DNA of 11,777 bases from a virus, in the UHGV virus genome UHGV-1359708. One strand, written 5' to 3'. How positions within the stretch are numbered: the stretch's first letter is position 1; each line of letters begins with the position of its first letter. This document shows positions 12 to 11,777 of this stretch, piece by piece. Below the pieces are notes generated by a model. That model did not search any database and had not been told where the DNA came from. It saw nothing but the letters and a program-made list of their open reading frames with translations. Position numbers and translations under genes: made by a program.

Positions 12-1430
12 ATGCCGATTCAGCAACTTCCGCTTATGAAAGGTGTCGGCAAAGACTTTCGAAACGCCGACTATATCGACTATCTTCCAGTGAATATGCT
101 GGCTACACCCAAAGAAATCCTCAACAGCAGCGGATATCTTCGCTCATTCCCGGGCATTGCCAAACGTTCTGATGTGAACGGCGTATCGCGCGGCGTCGAG
201 TACAACATGGCGCAGAGTGCTGTTTATCGCGTGTGTGGTGGCAAGTTGTATAAGGGCGAAAGTGAAGTCGGTGATGTTGCAGGAAGTGGTCGCGTATCAA
301 TGGCGCACGGTCGAACATCACAGGCGGTAGGCGTTAATGGTCAACTGGTCGAGTATCGTTATGATGGCACGGTTAAAACAGTCTCAAACTGGCCTACTGA
401 TAGCGGATTCACGCAGTATGAGTTAGGCTCGGTCCGCGACATTACGCGCTTACGTGGGCGTTATGCGTGGTCAAAAGACGGCACTGATTCATGGTTTATA
501 ACTGACCTTGAAGACGAATCGCACCCTGACCGCTACAGCGCACAATATCGCGCAGAATCGCAGCCTGACGGCATCATCGGCATCGGAACATGGCGAGACT
601 TCATCGTTTGCTTTGGTTCATCAACGATTGAATATTTCTCCCTGACTGGTGCAACCACTGTTGGTGCTGCTTTGTATGTCGCACAGCCATCACTGATGGT
701 GCAGAAAGGCATTGCCGGGACTTACTGTAAAACGCCATTCGCTGATTCTTATGCGTTCATCAGCAATCCGGCAACGGGTGCGCCGTCTGTATACATCATC
801 GGCTCCGGTCAGGTGTCACCTATCGCCAGCGCGAGCATTGAGAAAATACTCCGCTCCTACACTGCTGATGAACTGGCTGATGGCGTGATGGAATCGTTGC
901 GGTTTGATGCGCATGAGTTGCTGATTATCCACCTTCCGCGCCACGTCCTCGTGTACGACGCATCTTCAAGCGCCAATGGTCCGCAATGGTGTGTACTGAA
1001 AACTGGCCTGTATGACGATGTGTACCGCGCTATCGACTTCATTTACGAAGGCAATCAGATAACGTGCGGCGATAAGCTGGAGTCCGTGACCGGGAAATTG
1101 CAATTCGACATCAGCAGCCAGTACGACAAGCAACAGGAACACCTGCTGTTTACTCCACTGTTCAAAGCGGATAACGCCAGAGTGTTCGACCTTGAGGTTG
1201 AATCGTCAACTGGCGTTGCGCAGTATGCTGACCGCCTTTTTCTCTCTGCAACCACTGACGGCATCAATTACGGGCGTGAGCAGATGATTGAGCAGAATGA
1301 ACCGTTCGTTTACGACAAACGCGTTTTGTGGAAGCGAGTAGGGCGAATCAGGAAAAATGTCGGCTTCAAATTGCGCGTTATCACGAAGTCACCTGTCACT
1401 CTGTCAGGCTGCCAGATAAGGATTGAGTAA
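12..1430 (+). CDS. Tail hub / head-completion protein, homologue of P22 gp10
   Basis: 472-aa ORF, the same length as P22 gp10 as I recall it. GAGGTGA Shine-Dalgarno at 1-7 precedes the ATG at 12. It sits directly upstream of a gp26-like tail needle gene and shares a TAATG stop/start overlap with it at 1428-1432, matching the P22 late-operon order 4-10-26-14-7-20-16. Assignment rests on synteny and length plus typical coding composition; no search was run. Confidence 0.85.
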
Positions 1431-2383
1431 TGGCGGATTCGAATCTCAATGTGCCGGTAATCATTCAGGCTACACGGCTCGACACATCAGTCCTTCCACG
1501 CAATATCTTCTCGCAGTCGTATCTGCTTTACGTTATCGCACAGGGCACTGATGTTGGTAACGTGGCTAACAAAGCCAACGAGGCCGGACAGGGCGCTTAT
1601 GATGCACAGGTCAGGAACGATGAGCAGGATGTCACCCTTGCAGACCATGAATCCAGAATTGAAGCTGCTGAAGCAACTCTCATCAATCATGAACATAGAA
1701 TTGCAGCAGCGGAAAGCACTCTTGCAGATCATGAAACAAGGATTACGGCTGCTGAAACAGAGCTGGCTGATCACGAGACGCGAATTGCTGCCAATGAATC
1801 TGAGTTAGCAAACCATGATGCGCGCATAACTCAGAATACAACCGATATCGACGCACTTGATACCAGGCTCACAGCGGCAGAGGGAAGTATTTCGACGCTA
1901 CAAAGCACAGTTGGTGATCACTCAACAAGAATATCTGCGCTTGAGTATGCCACCACGCGCAAGAAATCAGAGGTTGTTTACTCAGGGGTATCGGTAACAA
2001 TTCCGACATCGCCTACCAACCTTGTTAGCCTGCTGAAAACGCTCACGCCGTCATCCGGTGAGTTGGCACCATTCTTCGACACCGTTAACAACAAGATGGT
2101 TGTGTTCAACGAGAACAAAACCTTGTTCTTCAAGCTGTCGATCGTCGGGACGTGGCCCAGCGGAACCGCCAACAGGTCAATGCAGCTAACATTTTCCGGT
2201 TCTGTTCCTGACACACTGGTAAGCAGTCGTAATGCGGCGACAACAACCGACAACATCCTGTTAGCTACGTTCTTCAGTGTGGATAAAGACGGCTTTCTTG
2301 CCACAAATGGCAGTACGTTAACCATTCAGTCGAATGGTGCGGCGTTTACTGCCACAACCATCAAGATAATCGCGGAGCAGTAA
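1430..2383 (+). CDS. Tail needle (cell-envelope-penetrating needle), P22 gp26 family, with C-terminal extension
   Basis: The N-terminus [43 protein letters not shown]...[26 protein letters not shown] closely matches the conserved gp26 N-terminal domain as I remember it. It is followed by two-heptad repeats ADHExRIxAAExxL typical of the trimeric coiled coil. At 317 aa it is longer than P22 gp26 (about 233 aa), with a C-terminal Ser/Thr/Asn-rich segment of about 140 aa consistent with a knob domain as in Sf6/HK620-type needles. Confidence 0.9.
1640..1807 (+). repeat. Four tandem 42-nt (14-codon) repeats encoding [A/I][D/N]HExRIxAAExxL inside the tail-needle gene, plus a degenerate fifth copy downstream
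   Basis: Direct reading of codons: [14 protein letters not shown] / [14 protein letters not shown] / [14 protein letters not shown] / [14 protein letters not shown], then [10 protein letters not shown]. The repeats are conserved at protein level with many synonymous and near-synonymous nucleotide differences. Confidence 0.8.
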
Positions 2384-2840: not shown

Positions 2841-3536
2841 ATGTTATATGCATTTAAGCTGGGCAGAAAACTGCGCGGCGAGGAACCTTATTGCCCTGAA
2901 AAAGGCGGGAAAGGTGGCAGTTCTGATAAAAGCGCAAAGTATGCAGCAGAAGCTCAGAAGTATGCCGCAGACCTGCAAAATCAGCAGTTCAACACCATCA
3001 TGAACAACCTGAAACCGTTTACTCCTCTGGCTGAGAAGTATGTCGGCAGCCTCGAGAACTTATCGTCTCTGGAGGGGCAAGGTCAGGCACTTAACCAGTA
3101 TTACAACTCTCAGCAGTACAAAGATCTTGCTGGTCAGGCTCGCTATCAGAGTCTGGCTGCAGCGGAAGCAACAGGTGGATTGGGTTCCACTGCAACCGGT
3201 AATCAGTTAGCAACAATCGCACCAACGCTTGGTCAGCAGTGGCTGTCTGGTCAGATGAACAACTACCAGAATCTGGCAAATATTGGTCTTGGCGCACTGC
3301 AAGGTCAGGCAAACGCCGGGCAGACATATGCCAACAACATGAGTCAGATTTCGCAGCAAAGTGCGGCTCTTGCCGCTGCTAATGCCAATAAACCATCAGG
3401 TCTTCAGACAGCAATTAGCGGCGGAGCTTCAGGGGCTATGACTGGCGCTGCTCTTGGCTCTATTGTTCCCGGACTTGGCACTGGATTAGGTGCGGCAATT
3501 GGCGGCGGACTTGGCCTGCTTGGATCGTTGTTTTAA
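2841..3536 (+). CDS. Ejection (internal virion) protein, P22 gp7-like
   Basis: 231 aa (P22 gp7 is about 229 aa). GGAGA Shine-Dalgarno at 2830-2834. Gln/Asn/Ala-rich body with a Gly-rich hydrophobic C-terminal tail (GAAIGGGLGLLGSLF) compatible with membrane insertion. It is the first of three consecutive genes matching the P22 7-20-16 ejection-protein order. Confidence 0.8.
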   Translation: MLYAFKLGRKLRGEEPYCPEKGGKGGSSDKSAKYAAEAQKYAADLQNQQFNTIMNNLKPFTPLAEKYVGSLENLSSLEGQGQALNQYYNSQQYKDLAGQARYQSLAAAEATGGLGSTATGNQLATIAPTLGQQWLSGQMNNYQNLANIGLGALQGQANAGQTYANNMSQISQQSAALAAANANKPSGLQTAISGGASGAMTGAALGSIVPGLGTGLGAAIGGGLGLLGSLF

Positions 3537-3545
3537 GGGGTAATC

Positions 3546-4934
3546 ATGGCTACTTGGCAAGGAACAAATGGCGGATTGTTGGCTGGTATCGGTGGCGTCA
3601 ACTCAAACGCTCCGAGCGTAAATGACATCGGCAATACGCTTCAGCTTATCAGGCAGAACAATGATATTGAGCGTTCAGGCGCTAACAATGTTGGGCTGAC
3701 TGCTTTGCAAGGCCTTTCAGGTATTGCGGGGGTGTTTCAGCAGGAAAAGCAGGCTCAGCGGCAGAAAGAATTTCAGCAGGCATACGCTAATGCTTATGCG
3801 TCTGGTGATCGCGGTGCTTTGCGTCAGTTGGCTACTCAATATCCAGACCAGATTGAATCTGTTCGTAAAGGCATGGGATTCATTGATGAAGACCAGCGCA
3901 ATTCTATCGGCACCTTAGCGGCTGGCGCCCGTCTTGCATCATCGTCTCCAGAAGCAATGCAATCATGGCTGCAAAACAACGCCAAGGAACTGACTCGCGT
4001 CGGTGTTGACCCTAATAACGTTGCTCAGATGTATCAGCAGAACCCTTCAGGATTTGGTGAGTTTGTTGATCACCTTGGAATGGCTGCTCTTGGTCCGATT
4101 GATTACTTCAATGTTCAGGACAAGATGGCTGGTCGTGAGATTGATCGCGGAAAACTTGCAGAGACAATCCGCAGCAATCAGGCTGGCGAGGCGCTAACAG
4201 CACGAGGCCAGAACATCACGATGCGCGGTCAGGACTTATCTGCTTCTACTGCGCGACGCGGGCAGGATTTGGCAATGCAGCGAGCGTCAACAAGAGGAAC
4301 TGCTGGGAATGATGAGCGTACAGTTCAGTTATCAGATGGCAGAACTGTAACGGTAGGCGGGAAACTTCACGGCGCTGGGGCTAATGCGTTCTACGAAGGC
4401 ATCGACAACGAGGGGAATATGGTTCGCGTTCCTGCCAGTTCAATCGCAGCGCCTGCAACATCGTCTGCATCAGCACAAAACTATGCCATGAAGAAGGATA
4501 TCGACGCGATCGCAAATGCAGACGCTTCTGCTCTCGATTTCATGACAGGAATGACAGGCGGTGCAGGTAATCCAGCAATTGGTGCTGATGTTCGCAGCCG
4601 ATTAACAGGAAAAGAGCAGCGCCAGTTATATAACTCAGCACAACGTATTCAGGGCAGAATGCAGAATCAGGGTGTGGCGGCAGCAAGGGATATGGGTGCC
4701 AGTGGTATTAACACCGTTGCAGAAGCGAAGATGTATTTTCAGGGGATGCCGCAGGTTGACTATTCAAGCCCGGAGGCTATGCAGCAGTCGATTCGTGAGA
4801 TTCAGGAATACACCAACAATTACAATCAACAATATAACGTTGATGTTGGTAAATCTCAGCGGCAGAAATCTCAACCTGCACAGGTATCACAGCCAGCAGC
4901 CAGCAGTAACTTTTCTTCACTATGGGGTGATTAA
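3546..4934 (+). CDS. Ejection (internal virion) protein, P22 gp20-like
   Basis: 462 aa (P22 gp20 is about 471 aa). AAGGGG Shine-Dalgarno at 3536-3541. Second gene of the ejection-protein triplet; Gly/Ala/Gln-rich composition typical of these proteins. Confidence 0.8.
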
Positions 4935-6931
4935 TGGCTAAAGCATGGAAAGATGTTATCGCCTCTCCACAGTATCAGGCGTTAGCACCAGAACAAAAAG
5001 CGCAGGCTCAGGAGCAATACTTCAATGAAGTCGTGGCCCCGCAAGCCGGAGAAAATGCAGAGCAGGCTAAGCAAGCTTTCTATGCTGCCTATCCATTGCC
5101 ATCTGTGCAGCCAGTGGAGACACAGCAACCAGTAGCACAGCAACAACCACAGCAAAGTGGATTTATGTCTGATCTTGGTGAAGCAGTGAAAGAGACTGGT
5201 CGCGGACTGGTGCAGGCTGGCGTGAACGTGGCAAACATACCTGCATCAGTTGCCGATGCTGTAACAAGCGCGGCGGCTTGGGCTGGCGGTAAACTCGGCA
5301 TTAGCGATGGTACATATCAACCAGCGCCACGAGTAACAACGCAGGGATTAGAGCAGGACTTTGGCCTTCAGCAAGGCGCGCTGACTCCACAAACTACAGA
5401 GGGAAGGGTATTTGCTGAAGCATTGCCTTACCTCACTCCTGCTGGCGTTGAGAGGGCGGCTGCACAGGCACCAACACTTGCTGGTCGAATTGCTCAGGGG
5501 GCAACTCGCCTTCTAGCAGAAAACGCAGTTGGATCACTTGCTGCAAATAGTGCGAAAGATGATGCGGAAGCACTCGCCACTGATTTAGGCGTTGGTGTAC
5601 TTGCTGGCGGTGCTATTAACGCTGCCGGACGTGGATTAGGTGCTGCTTATCGTGGCGTTCGTGGTGCTATTGCGCCAGAAGCGCAGCAGGCTATCAGATT
5701 TGCAGAGCGTGAAGGAGTTCCTCTGCACACCACAGACCTGTTACAACCAACTTCCCGCGTCGGAAAAATGGCGCAGACTACAGCAGAAAATATCCCTCTG
5801 GCTGGCACAAGCGGAATGAGAGCAACGCAACAGGAAGCGAGAAGTCAGTTGGTGCAGAGATTTGCTGATAAATTTGGTGAGTATGATCCAGCGGTTGTTA
5901 TTGACAGCCTTAAAGCGAAAACATCAGGAATTCGTCGTGCCGCCGGTAATCGACTGGAGCAGGTTCAGAATGCTATGGCTGGAGTAAACATTCAGCCTGC
6001 ACGAGCAATTCAGCAGATTGATACTGAGATATCTAATCTGCAGAAGCTTGGTAAGGTGGCTGATAACGAGACAATTTCAAAACTTCAGTCCTATCGTGAT
6101 GAGCTTGTTCGCAATGCTGGTCCTGATGGTCCGGTAAATCTGGATTTGAAGCAATTAAGCGATCTGCGCAGCCAGTTCAGAATGGACGTGAAGGGTGAGC
6201 GACCAGTGTTACCAAACCGTTCCGATGCTGCCATTCAGCGCGTTTACAAGGCAATGACCGACGATATCAATGGTGCCATTGGTCAGAATCTTGGCAACGA
6301 TACTCTCCGTAAATATCAGCAGGCCAATGCCGTCTACGCTGACGAAGCGGCTAAACTAAAGAATACCAGGCTGAAGAATGTTCTCATGAAAGGCGATCTG
6401 ACGCCGGAAGTTGTCAACAACATGCTATTCAGCAAGAACAAATCGGAAATTAAGACTCTGTATAACTCAGTTGGTCGTGTTGGCAGGGCGCAAATGCGCA
6501 ATGGCATTATTGGAAAGGCGATGGAGAAATCTGGAGGATCCCCTGACCAGTTCCTTCGGCAGCTTAACATCCTGCAAAACCAGACTGGCATCACATTTAA
6601 GGGGCAGGACGCTGCTTATCTGAAAGGATTGAAAAACTACCTGCAATCCACGCAGCAGGCTGCAAAAGCGGCAGTAACAACACCAACAGGGCAGCAAACC
6701 ATCCCGTTCATTATCGGGTATGGGACGGCAATGAACCCTGCAACAACTGGCGCAGCAGTAAGCTACGGACTTCTTACTCGCGCCTATGAGAGCGAGCCAT
6801 TCAGAAATGCAATGCTCAGAATGGCAAGCACACCACGCGGATCAACAGCGTTTGAGAAAGCCATGCAGCAGGCGCAAAAGGCCATTAACGCCCTGACTCA
6901 GGGGGCCAAGTCTGATGCGTTGTCAGAATAG
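4934..6931 (+). CDS. Ejection (internal virion) protein, P22 gp16-like
   Basis: 665 aa. TAATG stop/start overlap with the preceding gene at 4932-4936. Third and largest of the ejection-protein triplet (P22 gp16 is about 609 aa). Gln/Pro-rich low-complexity segment near the N-terminus (QQPVAQQQPQQSG) and Ala/Gly-rich central region. Confidence 0.8.
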   Translation: MAKAWKDVIASPQYQALAPEQKAQAQEQYFNEVVAPQAGENAEQAKQAFYAAYPLPSVQPVETQQPVAQQQPQQSGFMSDLGEAVKETGRGLVQAGVNVANIPASVADAVTSAAAWAGGKLGISDGTYQPAPRVTTQGLEQDFGLQQGALTPQTTEGRVFAEALPYLTPAGVERAAAQAPTLAGRIAQGATRLLAENAVGSLAANSAKDDAEALATDLGVGVLAGGAINAAGRGLGAAYRGVRGAIAPEAQQAIRFAEREGVPLHTTDLLQPTSRVGKMAQTTAENIPLAGTSGMRATQQEARSQLVQRFADKFGEYDPAVVIDSLKAKTSGIRRAAGNRLEQVQNAMAGVNIQPARAIQQIDTEISNLQKLGKVADNETISKLQSYRDELVRNAGPDGPVNLDLKQLSDLRSQFRMDVKGERPVLPNRSDAAIQRVYKAMTDDINGAIGQNLGNDTLRKYQQANAVYADEAAKLKNTRLKNVLMKGDLTPEVVNNMLFSKNKSEIKTLYNSVGRVGRAQMRNGIIGKAMEKSGGSPDQFLRQLNILQNQTGITFKGQDAAYLKGLKNYLQSTQQAAKAAVTTPTGQQTIPFIIGYGTAMNPATTGAAVSYGLLTRAYESEPFRNAMLRMASTPRGSTAFEKAMQQAQKAINALTQGAKSDALSE

Positions 6932-7040
6932 CTTCGCAAACACCAGGAACGTGCAAAAACCAACTATGTAGAACGCAATGTTCAACAGATCTCTTTGCAT
7001 AGACTCACCTCATAATTAACAAATCATAACTGACATTAGT

Positions 7041-7076
7041 GCAATGCCGGACAGGTTGCATCTTGTCCGGAATTGC
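7041..7076 (+). promoter_or_regulatory. Interrupted inverted repeat / RNA hairpin upstream of the tailspike gene
   Basis: GCAAT-g-CCGGACA (7041-7053), 10-nt loop, TGTCCGG-a-ATTGC (7064-7076). There is no downstream T-tract, so it is not a classical intrinsic terminator. A third TCCGGA copy at 7081-7086 overlaps the tailspike Shine-Dalgarno (GGAG at 7084-7087), so alternative pairing could occlude the ribosome-binding site. Confidence 0.4.
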
Positions 7077-7095
7077 TACGTCCGGAGCAAATTAA

Positions 7096-9276
7096 ATGAC
7101 AGACATTATAACTAATGTTGTAATTGGGATGCCTTCGCAACTCTTCACTATGGCTCGTTCTTTTAAAGCCGTAGCCAATGGCAAAATTTATATCGGTAAA
7201 ATTGACACGGACCCGGTAAATCCTGAAAACCAAATTCAGGTTTATGTGGAGAACGAAGACGGATCTCACATTCCCGTTTCGCAACCAATAATTATTAACG
7301 CTGCTGGCTACCCTGTATATAACGGACAGATTGCTAAGTTCGTAACCGTGCAAGGGCATTCTATGGCTGTGTACGATGCATATGGATCACAGCAGTTCAA
7401 TTTCCCTAATGTGCTGAAGTACGATCCAGATCAGTTATCAGTCATGTTAAATCTATCTTGGCTTCGAGGAATGAATGGATTTTTAGGTGGTGAGGTTTAT
7501 CCTAATAAAATTGGAATTGATGCAAAAATAGGAGACTTAATTCCCGAAGGTGTAAGATTCGTTAGGCTTGATGGCGCCCTTATGATGATGAGCACACCAT
7601 TATCATCACCATTGACAATTACCAGTTATGACTCAACTGTAATTAATGATAATATTGAACTTTACCCAATATCATTTTTTAATGAGGTTAATTCTGGTTG
7701 GAAAATTGCACAAAATGACGCTCAACTTAGTAGACTACTTCCACTATCTGGAAATATCGGGATCGCTTACTCTCCCGTAACTGTAGAAGGTATATTTAAT
7801 ATTCAGGGAGACATCCTCATAAAGCCGTTATTGCCAAAAGTGACGGTAGATTCCAGACAATTATGGCTCAGATCCCCACGGACATGGAACGAATCAAATC
7901 AAGAGTTTGACTATACTCCATATGATATACGCATTGTCGGTAATTTCTTGTTTGATTTTTATCGGCAGAATGCTTCATTTGACCCAGGGGTTGGTTTGGC
8001 CATGCAATCTGCAGGTACACTTGAGCTTTCAGGGTGTGAATTGCAGGGGGCATGGAATAGCAACGTAACGATGGATTATGGGAGATGGGTTCTTGCCGAT
8101 AATCTGTACTCACATGATTGTGGTCGTGGGAAAATTCAAGATCCAGATGGCAGCAACCGAACTGGCATGGCGATCATTGTTAATGACCCCACAGAGGCGC
8201 ACGTCCATCATATCCGTTGCAGAAACACTTGGGCATCATCTTTGTTCTTCTCATCACGTCGCCCAAACCGTACGCTTAATCTTATGATTCACGATGTGAG
8301 CATTAATACCTCTGGTGGTAACGGTTTGCGTATTCAGTCAGACGACCTTGTGAACGGTTATGGTGATGGCACAGCTATCACAAGAGTTAACATAAACGCC
8401 GTTACAATCAAAAACTGTGAAAGCCACGGTCTTCGAGGGAATTTCCGTAATGGAGTAGTTACTGGACTATATGTAGAAAGTTCGAACGCAGGTGTCGCAA
8501 TTGAAGGAGCTAGTGACGTATCCTACGATAACGTTGTTATTCGTAACTGCTCGCAGGGTTTGTTATGCCGCTTCTATCCGGTAGAAAACACAAGGATGCG
8601 TTTTTCTAACTTCTTGATATCAGGTTGCTCTGCTGAAGCTGTTTATTTTTTGAGAAACTCAGCCAATACCACGACTAATCTTGCCGACATCGAGTTTGAC
8701 GGCATTACGATACACGCACTTGCAAATGGTGCAAAAGGGTTTGTTTTCAACGGTGGGCCTGCTGCGGTGCCAACCACAGATTTAACATTAAAAAATGTTC
8801 GCATAGTAGGCGCTTACCCTAACACAGAAAATGGGCATTATATCGTCATCATTAACTGCCGCCACATAGAGGTTGATAATGTGAACTTGAGGGGGTGCAA
8901 TGGAAGCGCAGAATCTTATTTACAAGCACTAGCCACACAGAGTGTTATTGTTAACAGGCTGGTAGCTGTGCAACCATTCGGGACAGTTAACAGGCCAATA
9001 TATACAAATGGTAGTGGTTCTGACGCTATAGTGAACATTACGAACTGTGTGGCCCCTGACACAACCACAGGTAGTATTGGGTACAACCCTGTACCAACAA
9101 AACGTTATGAGGCTAACAACCAGTTTGCCAATAGCTCACAACCTCAGCAGTATCCATTTACCAATTCCGGTGCGTTACGCGGTGGAGACGTAAACACCCT
9201 ATCTACTAAGGATATTGCTAACATAGTGGCAACACTAGTTAACGACATTAGCAATGGCAAATTTGTTGTAAGGTGA
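7096..9276 (+). CDS. Tailspike protein: P22-type head-binding N-terminal domain fused to a divergent parallel beta-helix receptor-binding/depolymerase domain
   Basis: The first roughly 114 residues ([50 protein letters not shown]...[29 protein letters not shown].....NVLKYDPDQ) match the conserved P22 gp9 head-binding domain as I recall it. The remaining roughly 610 residues are unrelated to P22 and show repetitive N/G/V/I-rich beta-helix-like strands (for example [63 protein letters not shown]). GGAG Shine-Dalgarno at 7084-7087. Confidence 0.9.
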
Positions 9277-9278
9277 CT

Positions 9279-10640
9279 ATGATGGCGCGTAGAAACGCGC
9301 TATCATCCTGTACTTTCTTTAAAGATCGGGTAAAAATAGTCATTTTTACATACAATATTATGAATATTTATGAATCATTTTTTACTTATGTGCTACCTGC
9401 GTTGTATGCCATAACATTAATATATTTAAGTGCCGTGTCATTCAAAAAACATGGCGTGTCATTCAAATCTGTTGGGATGTTATTCCTTGTTTTTACTCAT
9501 TTTTTTGGGTATATATCGCTTCCGTTTAGAGTTGGGGCAAAAGTTAGTTCTGCAGAATATATGCCGTATCAATATATAAATGATGTGTCTACGTTGTCGT
9601 TTATTGGTATAGTTTTGTTTTATGTATTCTCTCATACAGCGGCAGGAAGAAATAAAATAACTTTTTCTGATAAATATTTTATTGGTAGCCCAAAATTATT
9701 TGTAAGAACAACGTTGTTTTTAAGTTTTGTTGGAATGATGGCTTTTTATGCTATAAACGGCATATCTTTTAATTCTGATGATTATGCTTTAAAGCTTGGC
9801 GGAAATGCTGGTAGTGGTGTTATTATAATGATAATGTCATCTTTTGTTTCTGCTGTTATAGTGTATGCAATTACATCTGACGATAAGTATGTGTTCGTTA
9901 AATCAATTATAATGTCATTGTTATTTGGGATGGCATATTATGTGCTTATTGGTGGCTCAAGAAATGTAATGTTTTCCGCAATGTTTATTGTTGCTCTTAT
10001 TTGTCACTCTAGAGGCCTAATTGGCATATTGAAGTTAATATGCATAGGCTCTGCGTGCTTAATTCTAATTGGTATAATGGCTATAGTGAGATACTCAGAT
10101 GTTGATATTTCAGAGTCTGGCTCTCTGTTTGGCATTATAGTAAGATATTTAGCTGATAGCGTATCTCCTATCAATTATCAGAGTATAGCTGTTAAATACT
10201 TTAGCAATGATCGCAATGTTGGTGGTATCTATTATTTCTTTACTCAATTTTCAGGGTTTATCCCAAGATTCATATGGCCTGACAAACCAATTGTCACAAT
10301 GAATAGCTCATATTACTTTACCGTGAGTGCTCTTGGTCTTAGCAATGGATTGAATATGGCATCAACTTTGCTTGGGTCATCGCTTGTTATTTTCGGAAAG
10401 TATTTTTTCTGGTGCTCATATGTTATCTCAGGCGTTGTTTTTAGATTTCTTGATAAAATCATATTGATGAGGAGAGTTGGCGTAATACAAATAGCTGCAC
10501 TTATGACAATGCCTTTTTCATTTTTTATGGCAAGGGAGAGCCTTGAATTCTTTTTATTTATTTTCTTAAAAAATATAATAACTGTATCATTTGTATATTT
10601 TTCATATAAGGCAATATACTATATATTGCCTAAAAAATAA
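9279..10640 (+). CDS. Polytopic inner-membrane protein, tentatively a Wzy-like polysaccharide (O-antigen) polymerase or other surface-glycan modifying enzyme; start uncertain (alternative ATG at 9360)
   Basis: Long ORF in conspicuously AT-rich DNA immediately after the tailspike stop (TGA at 9274-9276). AAGGTG at 9270-9275 precedes ATG 9279/9282; the first hydrophobic helix begins right after the in-frame ATG at 9360 (MNIYESFFTYVLPALYAITLIYL). By eye there are at least 10 hydrophobic helix-length segments separated by short basic loops, plus one larger hydrophilic loop (RYSDVDISESGSLFGIIVRYLADSVSPINYQSIAVKYFSNDRNVGG). Size, Phe/Ile/Tyr-rich composition, low G+C and location next to a tailspike resemble phage- or host-encoded Wzy proteins. 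There is no acyltransferase-3 type N-terminal motif and no accompanying gtrA/gtrB. Confidence 0.7.
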   Translation: MMARRNALSSCTFFKDRVKIVIFTYNIMNIYESFFTYVLPALYAITLIYLSAVSFKKHGVSFKSVGMLFLVFTHFFGYISLPFRVGAKVSSAEYMPYQYINDVSTLSFIGIVLFYVFSHTAAGRNKITFSDKYFIGSPKLFVRTTLFLSFVGMMAFYAINGISFNSDDYALKLGGNAGSGVIIMIMSSFVSAVIVYAITSDDKYVFVKSIIMSLLFGMAYYVLIGGSRNVMFSAMFIVALICHSRGLIGILKLICIGSACLILIGIMAIVRYSDVDISESGSLFGIIVRYLADSVSPINYQSIAVKYFSNDRNVGGIYYFFTQFSGFIPRFIWPDKPIVTMNSSYYFTVSALGLSNGLNMASTLLGSSLVIFGKYFFWCSYVISGVVFRFLDKIILMRRVGVIQIAALMTMPFSFFMARESLEFFLFIFLKNIITVSFVYFSYKAIYYILPKK

Positions 10641-10682
10641 AAAACCGCACGCGATAAGCGTGCGGAAGTTCTCATTTATTTT
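10632..10682. terminator. Bidirectional rho-independent terminator between the convergent cargo genes
   Basis: GC-rich hairpin CCGCACGC (10645-10652), loop GATAA, GCGTGCGG (10658-10665). It is flanked by an A-run on the 5' side (10632-10644), which gives a U-tract for the minus-strand transcript, and by a T-rich tail AAGTTCTCATTTATTTT on the 3' side. It lies 5 nt after the + strand stop (10640) and 7 nt after the minus-strand stop (10672-10674). Confidence 0.75.
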
Positions 10683-10989
10683 GCATGTATAGTAACTTAT
10701 TATCTTTTGTGCATTTTACTAATATTTTTTCCTCGCCCCTTGAAGCTATGAACTGGCTATGGCTGTTGAAATCTATGTTATGACCAGCAAAGTCTAGCGC
10801 TATCATTTTGAGGTTTGATATGCATGATGAATATTCTCTTGAGAAAGAAGATCTTAATTTAAAGTTGTCACCTGAAATACTTTGCGTATCATGCCCTTTT
10901 GAGCTTGATGACATAGGATAAAAAGAAATAACAATTATTGTTGTAATGATTATTAATATAATTATATTTAAGCATTTATCCTTATTCAT
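10672..10989 (-). CDS. Small signal-anchored or secreted protein of unknown function (about 105 aa from ATG 10989; 118 aa if the upstream ATG at 11028 is used)
   Basis: Minus-strand ORF in the same AT-rich block. From Met-14 the protein reads MNKDKCLNIIILIIITTIIVISFYPMSSSSKGHD..., that is, a short basic N-terminus, one roughly 20-residue hydrophobic segment, a Ser-rich linker, then a hydrophilic body of about 70 aa. The ATG at 10989 has an AAGG 13 nt upstream; the ATG at 11028 has no recognisable Shine-Dalgarno. No lipobox. Ends at the bidirectional terminator. Confidence 0.5.
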   Translation of the reverse strand: MNKDKCLNIIILIIITTIIVISFYPMSSSSKGHDTQSISGDNFKLRSSFSREYSSCISNLKMIALDFAGHNIDFNSHSQFIASRGEEKILVKCTKDNKLLYMQNK

Positions 10990-11047
10990 TTCCGTTTGCC
11001 TTGTAATGATGTGGTAAATTCGCAACATGGTTGTGCATAAAATTCAG

Positions 11048-11180: not shown

Positions 11181-11777
11181 TTAATCAACCTTCCCATCAA
11201 GCCAGTCTGCCCACCACTGCATCATTTCTCTGCGTTTGTCGAGATACTGAGCATGGTTGTATATTCCACGCACAGATCCGCCGTTGGCATGTGCCAGTTG
11301 CACTTCAATAGCGTCAGCAGGCCATTCGTGCTCGTTCATAATTGTGCTGAATTCATGCCTGAATCCGTGACCGCTTTCCAGACCCTCATAGCCGATTTGT
11401 TTGATCACAAGCAGTACAGCGTTCTCGCAAATTGGCTTCTTCTTATCGTTGCGCCCGGCAAAAACAAACTCTGATACTGGTTTGGTGATTGAGCTTAGCG
11501 TAGTGAGAAGTTCAACTACCTGGTCTGACATAGGAACCACATGAATTTTGCGTCCCTTCATCACACTGGCGTCAATGGTGATAATCCTGTTTTCAAAATC
11601 GACGTTCTTCCATAGCATGGAACGAAGCTCTTTTGTTCTGAGGGCTGTGTAGCGTAAAACTTTGGTCGCAATGAGCGATACGATGCTTCCTGAAAATGTT
11701 GCCAGTGCTTTGTTAAATGCCGAGATCTGGTCGGCAGGTAAAAACGGGAAGTTCTTCTTGCGGTATCCCTTCATGGC
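11181..11777 (-). CDS. int: Tyrosine integrase, C-terminal catalytic domain (partial; the N-terminal part lies beyond the window end)
   Basis: The minus-strand ORF runs off the window edge; the ATG at 11774 listed in the ORF track is internal. It contains the hallmark catalytic elements of tyrosine recombinases in order: Arg in ...MKGRKIHVVPMSDQ..., H-x-x-R in ...HGFRHEFST..., and the nucleophile Tyr in ...VRGIYNHAQYLDKRREMMQWWADWLDGKVD (stop at 11181-11183). The C-terminal YNHAQYL..RR.MMQWWAD.LD tail resembles P4/CP4-57-type integrases as I recall them. Confidence 0.85.
   Translation of the reverse strand, partial: AMKGYRKKNFPFLPADQISAFNKALATFSGSIVSLIATKVLRYTALRTKELRSMLWKNVDFENRIITIDASVMKGRKIHVVPMSDQVVELLTTLSSITKPVSEFVFAGRNDKKKPICENAVLLVIKQIGYEGLESGHGFRHEFSTIMNEHEWPADAIEVQLAHANGGSVRGIYNHAQYLDKRREMMQWWADWLDGKVD

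What the first reader, a model, noticed from the sequence alone, without database searches (positions are those of the whole stretch)
7096..9276. Mosaic tailspike: conserved P22-type head-binding domain joined at about nt 7435-7445 to a divergent, lower-G+C beta-helix receptor domain
Residues 1 to about 114 are near-identical in pattern to the P22 gp9 head-binding domain as remembered, ending at ...NVLKYDPDQ. Immediately after, the sequence loses all similarity and G+C visibly drops. The new body has the repetitive short-strand pattern with conserved Asn/Gly/Val/Ile typical of right-handed parallel beta-helix depolymerases. The junction is the known module-exchange point of P22-like tailspikes. 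The receptor specificity (O-antigen or capsule type) is not deducible from sequence alone and may be uncharacterised. Its adjacency to a putative polysaccharide polymerase suggests the two are a matched receptor/receptor-modification pair.
Basis: partly seen in the sequence, partly recalled or inferred. Interest (0 to 1): 0.6.

Follow-up and report, generated by a model that had tools for sequence, protein, structure and literature searches.

The report
Mosaic prophage tailspike, uncharacterised receptor module
This is the tailspike gene of a P22-like E. coli prophage. A standard virion-attachment domain is fused to a sugar-cutting beta-helix also found in the unrelated phage G7C, and it sits next to a phage polysaccharide polymerase; this is an ordinary kind of mosaic whose target sugar is still unknown.

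Summary
ORF 7096-9276 (+) encodes 726 aa. Residues 1-113 are a full Pfam Head_binding domain, 95.6% identical to Sf6 gp14 but only 72% to P22 gp9. DNA similarity to other E. coli tailspike genes stops at nt 7440 (codon 115).

Two points need correcting:
- There is no lasting G+C drop. The head-binding domain is 41.8% and the body 42.6%; only aa 115-210 dips, to 34.7%.
- A second exchange point lies at about nt 7724 (aa 210), so the protein has three modules.

In 5,426 complete E. coli genomes, the same 27 carry both the body and the adjacent wzy. Of these, 24 also carry a galF-gnd wzx/wzy cluster present in only 67 genomes (O8 backgrounds where checked, including the ST410 reference strains). 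Its product is the most likely receptor, but this is inferred.

Verdict: a new member of a known kind, of moderate interest.

The parts
7096..7440 (+). Head-binding (virion-attachment) domain, aa 1-115, ending ...[10 protein letters not shown]
   Evidence: Pfam PF09008 covers aa 1-113 (E 6e-64). Identity is 95.6% to Sf6 gp14 (PDB 7sg7) and 72.3% to P22 gp9. DNA is 98% identical to the tailspike of 2020CK-00188 up to nt 7440 and then unrelated.
7441..7724 (+). Neck helix plus small beta-rich domain, aa 116-210. It is a separately exchangeable module with the lowest G+C in the gene (34.7%, GC3 23%).
   Evidence: AlphaFold2 gives a helix at 111-130 and strands at 133-205. Loci L004, L014 and L016 share window 7081/7213-7724 at 89-91% DNA identity, then drop to 45-50% protein identity. 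G+C.
7750..9114 (+). Right-handed parallel beta-helix receptor-binding, presumably enzymatic, domain, aa 219-673
8296..8505 (+). Best-conserved stretch of the helix, aa 401-470 ([15 protein letters not shown]...[13 protein letters not shown]...[12 protein letters not shown]). Candidate active site.
   Evidence: In alignment A1 of 42 homologues, N404, S406, G408, N409, G410, R412, D417, K439, N440, C441, S443, H444, R447, Y459, E461, N464 and E470 are invariant. The block aa 401-440 stays 65-88% identical in most subtypes whose flanks fall to 18-40% (40-42% in P0119/P0120). The catalytic role is inferred.
8176..9135 (+). Variable distal two-thirds of the helix, aa 361-680. It separates this subtype from the G7C-gp66 subtype.
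   Evidence: Identity to P0073-P0091 is 80-98% over aa 201-360 but 42-82% over aa 361-680, lowest at aa 521-560. The DNA match to L011 breaks at 8584-9139 and to L012 at 8715-9118.
9115..9276 (+). C-terminal tail with predicted helices (aa 674-726) and the TGA stop codon
   Evidence: AlphaFold2 gives helices at 678-681, 691-694 and 704-719 with pLDDT 42-70. This end is conserved again at the DNA level with L011 and L012.
9279..10640 (+). wzy: WzyE-family oligosaccharide polymerase, 453 aa, about 11 predicted membrane spans. It starts 2 nt after the tailspike stop.
   Evidence: Pfam PF06899 E 9e-19. NCBIfam ECA polymerase equivalog scores 70.8 bits against a cut-off of 510, so it is not WzyE itself. 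RefSeq uses the ATG at 9279 as the start (sequence). Hydropathy. Identity is 31% to the chromosomal galF-gnd Wzy of the main hosts.
10645..10665 (.). G+C-rich hairpin between the convergent wzy and small ORF, with a T-run on the minus strand. Terminator-like.
   Evidence: 8-bp stem with 7 G-C pairs, followed by TTTTTTATTT.
10672..10989 (-). Small ORF of 105 aa (118 aa if counted from the upstream ATG at 11028). One N-terminal hydrophobic segment, then about 80 aa containing Cys residues (two aligned in the 102-aa homologue). Travels with wzy.
   Evidence: 97% identical in L011 next to the same wzy. It is 34% identical (E 1e-8) to a 102-aa ORF beside a different 406-aa membrane protein in the P0120-type module. 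No Pfam, PHROG or NCBIfam match.
11181..11777 (-). Prophage integrase (IntS type), cut by the window end
   Evidence: Pfam Phage_integrase E 1e-39. In N273 the gene is annotated intS and lies next to tRNA-Arg.

Best explanation
This is the tailspike of a P22-like (Sf6/HK620-type) temperate E. coli phage. The steps below are marked as shown or inferred.

1. Attachment (shown by homology). aa 1-115 are the standard head-binding domain that docks the spike on the tail hub.
2. Modular build (shown). The head-binding domain is recombined at codon 115 to a neck plus small beta domain (aa 116-210). That module is joined at about aa 210 to a beta-helix body.
3. Shared body family (shown). The same body family is carried on several other adaptors, including G7C gp66, Ackermannviridae tail spikes, Enterobacter prophages and short 555-aa forms.
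4. Enzymatic action (inferred, about 0.7). By analogy with P22, Sf6 and HK620, the helix binds and cleaves a repeat-unit surface polysaccharide. This would bring the virion to the outer membrane. The most conserved rungs, aa 401-470 (D417, H444, Y459, E461, E470), would form the active site. Hydrolase and lyase chemistry cannot be told apart.
5. Receptor (inferred, about 0.45). The receptor would be the Wzx/Wzy-dependent polysaccharide made by a six-gene galF-gnd cluster (wzy, wzx, a 496-aa ORF, GT4, pssD, pssE). Where I examined the flank (N767 and strain 124) this cluster sits beside an O8 mannan locus, and it is also carried by the O8 ST410 reference strains.
6. Receptor modification (inferred, about 0.5). 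The wzy gene immediately downstream, possibly with the small convergent ORF, would repolymerise that repeat unit with a different linkage in lysogens. This would alter the receptor and block superinfection, as in epsilon15 and D3.
For: Architecture:
- ORF; Pfam Head_binding; PDB head-binding domains.
- Gene order gp10, needle, gp14, gp7, gp20, gp16, tailspike, wzy, int at tRNA-Arg.
- DNA junctions at nt 7440 and 7724.

Shared body:
- 68-69% identity to G7C gp66 and MK-13, and 64% to fGh-Ecl02.
- Homologues carry PF09008, PF18668 or no known N-terminus.

Active site:
- Invariant residues and the conserved block aa 401-440.

Receptor and modification:
- The body and wzy occur in the same 27 of 5,426 genomes.
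- 24 of these 27 carry the galF-gnd cluster, which is present in only 67 genomes. Fisher p = 4e-45, not corrected for clonality.
- Carriers span both cluster alleles (97% apart) and hosts from humans, sheep meat, wild boar, chicken and a monkey.
- O8 wzm/wzt alone is in 308 genomes.
- A Wzy cannot act on the ABC-transporter-made O8 mannan (established knowledge). The prophage Wzy is 31% identical (E 1e-37) to the cluster's own Wzy and unrelated to the O131 Wzy.
- P22-like prophages with 73-78% identical bodies keep a 98% identical Wzy 2 nt downstream.
- The temperate Enterobacter phage CobraSix has a 55% identical Wzy directly after its own, unrelated tailspike.
Against: - No biochemical data exist for any member of this body family. 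The papers I read treat G7C gp66 as a fibre or anchor for gp63.1 and report no activity for it.
- Three carriers lack the cluster: N273 is O131 and E94 is O180; E92, from the same source, is absent from both cluster hit lists.
- The host association is confounded by clonal descent. Many carriers are near-identical clinical isolates with the same cluster allele as the ST410 reference strains.
- The N273 copy sits in a decayed prophage, so carriage partly reflects vertical inheritance rather than host range.
- Related bodies lie next to an acyltransferase or next to nothing relevant.
- Strains with the same cluster carry other tailspike types: 2020CK-00188, MY203L1 and A10.
- wzy has no detectable promoter of its own. 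It follows a late gene by 2 nt, so expression in lysogens is unproven.
- Catalytic residues were not mapped on a structure.
Confidence: 0.55

Rival explanations
1. The tailspike targets the O8 mannan O-antigen itself, which is made by the ABC-transporter pathway. The neighbouring wzy would then be an unrelated passenger gene.
For: N767 and strain 124 carry an O8-type wzm/wzt locus, and the ST410 lineage whose reference strains share the cluster is reported as O8:H9 (PMC10786849). O8-specific tailspikes exist, for example AV101 TSP1 (PMC10791037).
Against: O8 wzm/wzt is in 308 genomes, yet 24 of the 27 prophage carriers fall within the 67 that also have the wzx/wzy cluster; the other three lack it, and N273 and E94 have no O8 locus there. 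manC of the O8 locus is a pseudogene in N767 and strain 124. Only G7C, MK-13 and fGh-Ecl02 hold a homologous body among 50,697 phage records, so AV101 TSP1 is probably unrelated, provided AV101 is in that collection. G7C's host is O22-like, not O8.
Confidence: 0.15
2. The receptor is a conserved Wzy-dependent glycan such as enterobacterial common antigen (ECA) or colanic acid. The WzyE-like gene would then remodel that glycan.
For: The polymerase's only family matches are WzyE, the ECA polymerase. Tailspike-body homologues occur in phages and prophages of Escherichia, Shigella and Enterobacter hosts. Three carriers have unrelated O loci.
Against: The NCBIfam WzyE equivalog scores 70.8 bits against a cut-off of 510, with 24% identity to true WzyE. 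A universal receptor would not explain confinement to 27 of 5,426 genomes, 24 of them within one rare O/K cluster. The distal helix diverges strongly between subtypes, which is typical of serotype-specific recognition.
Confidence: 0.1
3. The body is a non-depolymerising module. It would be either a purely binding or structural spike, as G7C gp66 is usually described, or a modifying enzyme such as an esterase or epimerase.
Against: There is no similarity to gp63.1 or to any SGNH domain. Charged and polar residues are strongly conserved on consecutive rungs, which is more typical of an active site than of a scaffold. In a P22-like virion this is the only tailspike gene in the late-gene block seen here, so it would have to carry out the receptor step alone.
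Confidence: 0.15

Closest known systems
Sf6 gp14, P22 gp9 and HK620 gp9 tailspikes (Lederbergvirus-type, Pfam Head_binding plus beta-helix endoglycosidase)
   Same: The N-terminal head-binding domain is 95.6% identical to Sf6 and 72% to P22. The gene position is the same, after the ejection proteins and before the conversion genes and int. The exchange point at the end of ...YDPDQ is the same. The body has a right-handed beta-helix architecture.
   Different: The body has no sequence similarity to any of them and at most 15% structural-alignment identity. An extra exchangeable neck/beta module (aa 116-210) is present. The C-terminus is predicted helical. Specificity and chemistry are unknown.
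Phage G7C gp66, C-terminal module (aa 464-1063); also the MK-13 and fGh-Ecl02 tail spikes
   Same: 68-69% identity over about 600 aa for G7C and MK-13, and 64% over aa 71-726 for fGh-Ecl02, including the neck/beta domain from aa 127 and the whole helix. aa 201-360 are 80-98% identical.
   Different: The N-terminal adaptor is of the PF18668/gp66 type in those virulent N4-like and Ackermannviridae phages. The distal helix (aa 361-680) is only 42-82% identical, so specificity may differ. I found no published receptor or activity for the gp66 module.
Seroconversion by polymerase replacement: Salmonella phage epsilon15 (tailspike gp20, beta-polymerase gp21, alpha-polymerase inhibitor gp22) and Pseudomonas phage D3 (iap, wzy-beta)
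   Same: A tailspike or conversion region encodes a phage Wzy plus a small membrane-associated protein. D3 is cited as the precedent in the E. coli O-antigen review, which only hypothesises such a case for E. coli (PMC7685785).
   Different: The epsilon15 gene details are from my own recollection and were not tested. There is no sequence similarity to those proteins. The small ORF here is 105 aa with a periplasmic-looking domain and lies on the opposite strand. No change of polysaccharide linkage has been shown.
Enterobacter phage vB_EclS_CobraSix gp25-gp26
   Same: A temperate phage whose tailspike is followed directly by a Wzy 55% identical to this one.
   Different: It has a siphovirus chassis, and its tailspike is unrelated in sequence.

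Membership tests
P22-like (Lederbergvirus-type) tailspike | N-terminal Head_binding domain (PF09008) | tested here: met
   213.7 bits against a cut-off of 24, covering profile positions 1-113 of 113. Matches PDB 7sg7, 2vky and 1lkt.
P22-like (Lederbergvirus-type) tailspike | Gene lies after the gp7/gp20/gp16 ejection genes and before the conversion/int region of a P22-like prophage | tested here: met
   ORF order. RefSeq annotation of the 99.4% identical locus in N273. Pfam labels of the neighbouring genes.
P22-like (Lederbergvirus-type) tailspike | Right-handed parallel beta-helix body | tested here: met
   [not shown]
P22-like (Lederbergvirus-type) tailspike | Homotrimer with endoglycosidase or lyase activity on O-antigen or capsule | not testable with these tools
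   Only conservation of D417, H444, Y459, E461 and E470 is available.
G7C gp66-type receptor module | Sequence homology across the C-terminal 600 aa | tested here: met
   68% identity, aa 127-726 against gp66 aa 464-1063.
G7C gp66-type receptor module | PF18668 (Tail_spike_N) adaptor that anchors to an N4-like or Ackermannviridae tail and binds a second spike | tested here: not met
   The N-terminus is PF09008 instead. PF18668 is found only in other homologues.
SGNH esterase tailspike (G7C gp63.1 type) | SGNH hydrolase domain, or homology to gp63.1 | tested here: not met
   The G7C match falls in gp66, not gp63.1. No gp63.1 chain appears among the PDB hits and there is no SGNH Pfam hit.
Defined CAZy hydrolase or lyase family (GH28, GH87, PL6 and similar) | Family signature motifs and catalytic residues | tested here: inconclusive
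   [not shown]
WzyE, the ECA polymerase (neighbouring gene) | Reaches the NCBIfam equivalog cut-off | tested here: not met
   70.8 bits against a cut-off of 510. It belongs to the broader Pfam WzyE family only (68.2 bits against 25).

The most novel reading that the evidence does not exclude
The tailspike, wzy and small convergent ORF form one receptor and receptor-remodelling cassette. It would be aimed not at the serotyped O8 antigen but at a second, Wzx/Wzy-made polysaccharide (a group-4 'K-LPS'-like antigen) encoded at galF-gnd in O8 E. coli, including the strains that serve as references for the high-risk clone ST410. By homology, that would give the first testable receptor class for the long-unexplained G7C gp66 module. 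It would also be a first documented case of prophage Wzy-mediated conversion in E. coli.
Probability: 0.3. Interest if true: 0.6.

Novelty: new member of a known kind. Interest (0 to 1): 0.4.

Why it matters
Exchange of tailspike modules at the end of the head-binding domain is textbook biology, so the mosaic itself is expected. Three things are useful here:
1. This receptor module is shared by temperate P22-like prophages, an N4-like phage (G7C), Ackermannviridae and Enterobacter prophages, yet I found no assigned substrate for it. A cheap experiment on this 726-aa protein would annotate the whole family.
2. Genome co-occurrence points to a specific candidate substrate: a little-studied second polysaccharide locus found in O8 strains, including the ST410 reference strains. 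That is relevant to choosing phages or depolymerases against that clone.
3. The linked prophage Wzy and its small partner would, if active, be a polymerase-replacement conversion system in E. coli. A 2019 review of E. coli O antigens only hypothesised such a system.

Tried and rejected
- **G7C esterase.** I first suspected the G7C hit was the esterase gp63.1. The annotation shows it is gp66, and no gp63.1 or SGNH match exists.
- **O131 as the common host serotype.** Only N273 among the carriers is O131.
- **O101/O162/O89 literature.** That locus is a different one, with wzm/wzt at galF-gnd.
- **AV101 TSP1 (O8-specific) as a homologue.** It is not among the phage hits.
- **CobraSix tailspike as a homologue.** It is not one.
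- **The 406-aa protein next to P0120-type spikes.** It has no family match and no BLAST similarity to either Wzy.
- **Promoter scan.** The number of sigma-70-like sites equals the shuffled expectation (16 against 16.9), so it gives no evidence for or against a wzy promoter.
- **K40 identity of the cluster.** I recalled that the galF-gnd cluster resembles the E. coli O8:K40 group IB locus (six genes; wzy, wzx, an unknown ORF, three glycosyltransferase genes). I could not retrieve a source, so this stays an untested lead.
Full report
**1. The object**

The window is the late-gene end of a P22-like prophage. Its gene order is gp10, a tail needle with a knob, gp14, gp7, gp20, gp16, the ORF in question, a polymerase-like gene, a small convergent ORF, and an integrase cut by the window end.

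A locus 99.4% identical over the tailspike-wzy segment (window 7096-10700) in E. coli N273 is annotated the same way. It lies at tRNA-Arg, next to intS. The ORF 7096-9276 (+) is intact and encodes 726 aa.

**2. Checking the observation**

- **Head-binding domain.** Residues 1-113 match Pfam Head_binding over the whole profile (E 6e-64). They also match solved head-binding domains.
- **Identity to known spikes.** Identity is 95.6% to Sf6 gp14 but only 72.3% to P22 gp9. 'Near-identical to P22' is therefore overstated.
- **Breakpoint.** The tailspike gene of strain 2020CK-00188 matches window 7081-7440 at 98% and then stops.
- **Frequency.** 969 of 5,426 complete E. coli genomes match some part of the 3.6-kb tailspike-wzy query, and the partial matches shown cover its 5' end. 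Only 27 continue into the body.
- **G+C.** The composition claim fails. The head-binding domain is 41.8% G+C and the body is 42.6% (p=0.82). Only aa 115-210 dips, to 34.7% (p=0.08). The significant steps are at the gene borders: gp16 50.9%, tailspike 42.5%, wzy 32.4%.

**3. A third module**

Loci L004, L014 and L016 share window 7081/7213-7724 at 89-91% DNA identity. Beyond that point they keep only 45-50% protein identity.

Residues 116-210 are therefore exchanged separately. In the model they form a neck helix (111-130) followed by a small beta-rich domain. The protein is a three-part mosaic.

**4. The body**

AlphaFold2, run with a 42-sequence alignment, gives a confident model for aa 140-680 (most blocks pLDDT >90). 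It shows a long run of short strands from aa 219 to 673, followed by low-confidence C-terminal helices.

- All of these are at 15% identity or less.
- No solved protein matches the body by sequence, even with a profile.

The beta-helix claim is confirmed. The fold does not assign the chemistry.

**5. Relatives**

Among 50,697 phage records, only three phages hold a homologous body: G7C, Shigella phage MK-13 and Enterobacter phage fGh-Ecl02.

The G7C match is to gp66 aa 464-1063 at 68% identity, not to the well-studied esterase gp63.1. The papers I could read describe gp66 as the fibre that anchors gp63.1, with swappable C-terminal alleles. They give no receptor or activity for it.

In the large protein collection the body occurs behind several different N-termini:
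- the P22 head-binding domain;
- the PF18668 gp66/TSP1-type adaptor;
- unrecognised N-termini of about 830-aa Enterobacter proteins;
- short 555-aa forms.

An identity profile separates three subtypes:
- **This subtype.** Members are 96-100% identical in E. coli prophages. The body is 86-87% identical on PF18668 adaptors.
- **The G7C-like subtype.** aa 201-360 are 80-98% identical, but aa 361-680 are only 42-82% identical.
- **A third subtype.** Overall identity is 45-50%.

The block aa 401-440 stays 65-88% identical in most of them (40-42% in P0119/P0120). D417, H444, Y459, E461 and E470 are invariant. I read this as a conserved active site flanked by variable recognition surfaces. That reading is inference.

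**6. The neighbouring genes**

wzy starts at the ATG at 9279, 2 nt after the tailspike stop codon. Its properties are:
- It belongs to the Pfam WzyE family.
- It falls far below the NCBIfam cut-off for the true ECA polymerase.
- It has about 11 hydrophobic spans.

A strong hairpin at 10645-10665 separates it from a convergent 105-aa ORF. That ORF has one N-terminal hydrophobic segment.

The small ORF travels with wzy in L011 at 97% identity. It also has a 34%-identical counterpart beside a different 406-aa membrane protein in prophages carrying the third tailspike subtype.

The Wzy has few relatives:
- 55% identity in the temperate Enterobacter phage CobraSix, directly after that phage's unrelated tailspike;
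- 39% or less in Vibrio.

**7. Is it a matched pair?**

Evidence for:
- The body and wzy occur in exactly the same 27 genomes.
- P22-like prophages whose body is only 73-78% identical keep a 98%-identical Wzy at the same 2-nt spacing.

Evidence against a necessary pairing:
- A G7C-like body in Enterobacter hormaechei prophages is followed by an acyltransferase.
- A copy of this subtype in a siphovirus-like contig is followed by SSB and ERF genes.
- P0069 has no such neighbour.

The position after the tailspike is the usual conversion-gene slot. [quoted passage not shown] The pairing is thus a lineage feature, compatible with receptor modification but not proof of it.

**8. Which receptor?**

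I examined the O-antigen loci of the carrier strains.

- **Exceptions.** N273 is O131 and E94 is O180. E92, a second bovine isolate with the same strain-name series and genome size, is absent from both cluster hit lists.
- **Main pattern.** N767 and strain 124 carry a six-gene wzx/wzy cluster at galF-gnd, plus an O8-type wzm/wzt mannan locus whose manC is a pseudogene.
- **Rarity of the cluster.** It occurs in 67 of 5,426 genomes, as two alleles 97% identical to each other.
- **Overlap with the prophage.** 24 of the 27 prophage carriers are among those 67, and they cover both alleles. Fisher p = 4e-45, uncorrected for clonality.
- **O8 alone.** O8 wzm/wzt is in 308 genomes, so the prophage tracks the wzx/wzy cluster much better than it tracks O8.
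- **Clone.** The cluster-bearing genomes include SCEC020026 and AMA1167; the former is the O8 reference strain of ST410 clone B4/H24RxC (PMC10786849).

A Wzy cannot act on an ABC-transporter-made mannan. The prophage Wzy is 31% identical (E 1e-37) to the cluster's own Wzy and unrelated to the O131 Wzy.

Together these point to the cluster's product as both the receptor and the polymerase substrate. I put this at about 0.45. The reasons for caution are:
- clonal structure among the carriers;
- three exceptions;
- a decayed prophage in N273, where the head genes are deleted;
- other tailspike types in strains with the same cluster.

**9. Comparison with what is known**

This is a P22-type tailspike by its defining features: head-binding domain, genomic position and beta-helix. 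Its receptor module belongs to the gp66 family but lacks that family's adaptor.

The polymerase plus small-protein arrangement works like the epsilon15 and D3 conversion systems. The epsilon15 details are from my own recollection. D3 is cited in PMC7685785, which only hypothesises such a case in E. coli. Nothing about that function was tested here. A phage-encoded Wzy that polymerises capsule units is documented in Acinetobacter (PMC9241936, listed).

**10. Verdict**

The mosaic is real and sits at the stated junction. The beta-helix is real, and no characterised tailspike aligns end to end.

The compositional argument is wrong, and the architecture has three parts. It is a new member of a known kind, with moderate interest (0.4). 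The interest comes from an uncharacterised, widely shared receptor module and a concrete, testable candidate receptor in a clinically relevant lineage.

Noticed in passing
window 9279-10640 (+), 10645-10665, 10672-10989 (-): A WzyE-family polymerase starts 2 nt after the tailspike stop, with no terminator in between. A strong hairpin and a convergent 105-aa ORF with one hydrophobic segment follow. The small ORF has a 34%-identical counterpart beside a different 406-aa membrane protein in another tailspike module (L016), which suggests a conserved two-gene conversion unit.
   Followed up: partly
L008:3922-9800 (E. coli N767); the same cluster in 67 of 5,426 genomes: A six-gene galF-gnd wzx/wzy cluster (wzy, wzx, a 496-aa ORF with no family match, GT4, pssD, pssE) sits beside an O8 wzm/wzt mannan locus whose manC has an internal stop. 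Its product is not identified. From memory the layout resembles the O8:K40 group IB locus, but this is unverified.
   Followed up: partly
L006 (E. coli N273, NZ_CP189521.1 1441307-1468911): The N273 copy of this prophage is decayed. The replication genes abut a truncated gp4, so the lysis, terminase, portal and coat genes are missing. N273 has also switched to an O131 O-locus, and its wzzB is a pseudogene.
   Followed up: partly
window 1430-2383 (+): The tail needle is the long 317-aa form with a C-terminal knob (PHROG 'tail needle knob', E 7e-136). RefSeq calls it 'tail needle knob protein' in N273. From memory this is the Sf6 type rather than the 233-aa P22 gp26 type.
   Followed up: no
window 6932-7095; compare L012, L013, L014 at 3350-5900: Only 164 nt separate gp16 from the tailspike here. 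Related prophages carry an immI-like block (Arc/Mnt-type repressors, Bro-N/antirepressor) at this position. The last 15 nt before the ATG are conserved together with the head-binding domain.
   Followed up: no
[not shown]
   Followed up: no
L004 (MY203L1), NZ_CP195143.1 (A10), L005 (2020CK-00188): Three strains with the second allele of the same galF-gnd cluster carry other tailspikes. MY203L1 and A10 share the aa 40-210 modules; MY203L1's body is 50% identical and its gene abuts an IS1, and A10's is flanked by an IS3-family transposase. 2020CK-00188 has an unrelated 815-aa body at argW with no conversion gene.
   Followed up: partly
window 7036-7359 (-): A 107-aa ORF lies antisense to the head-binding domain coding region. 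It has no supporting evidence and is probably spurious.
   Followed up: no
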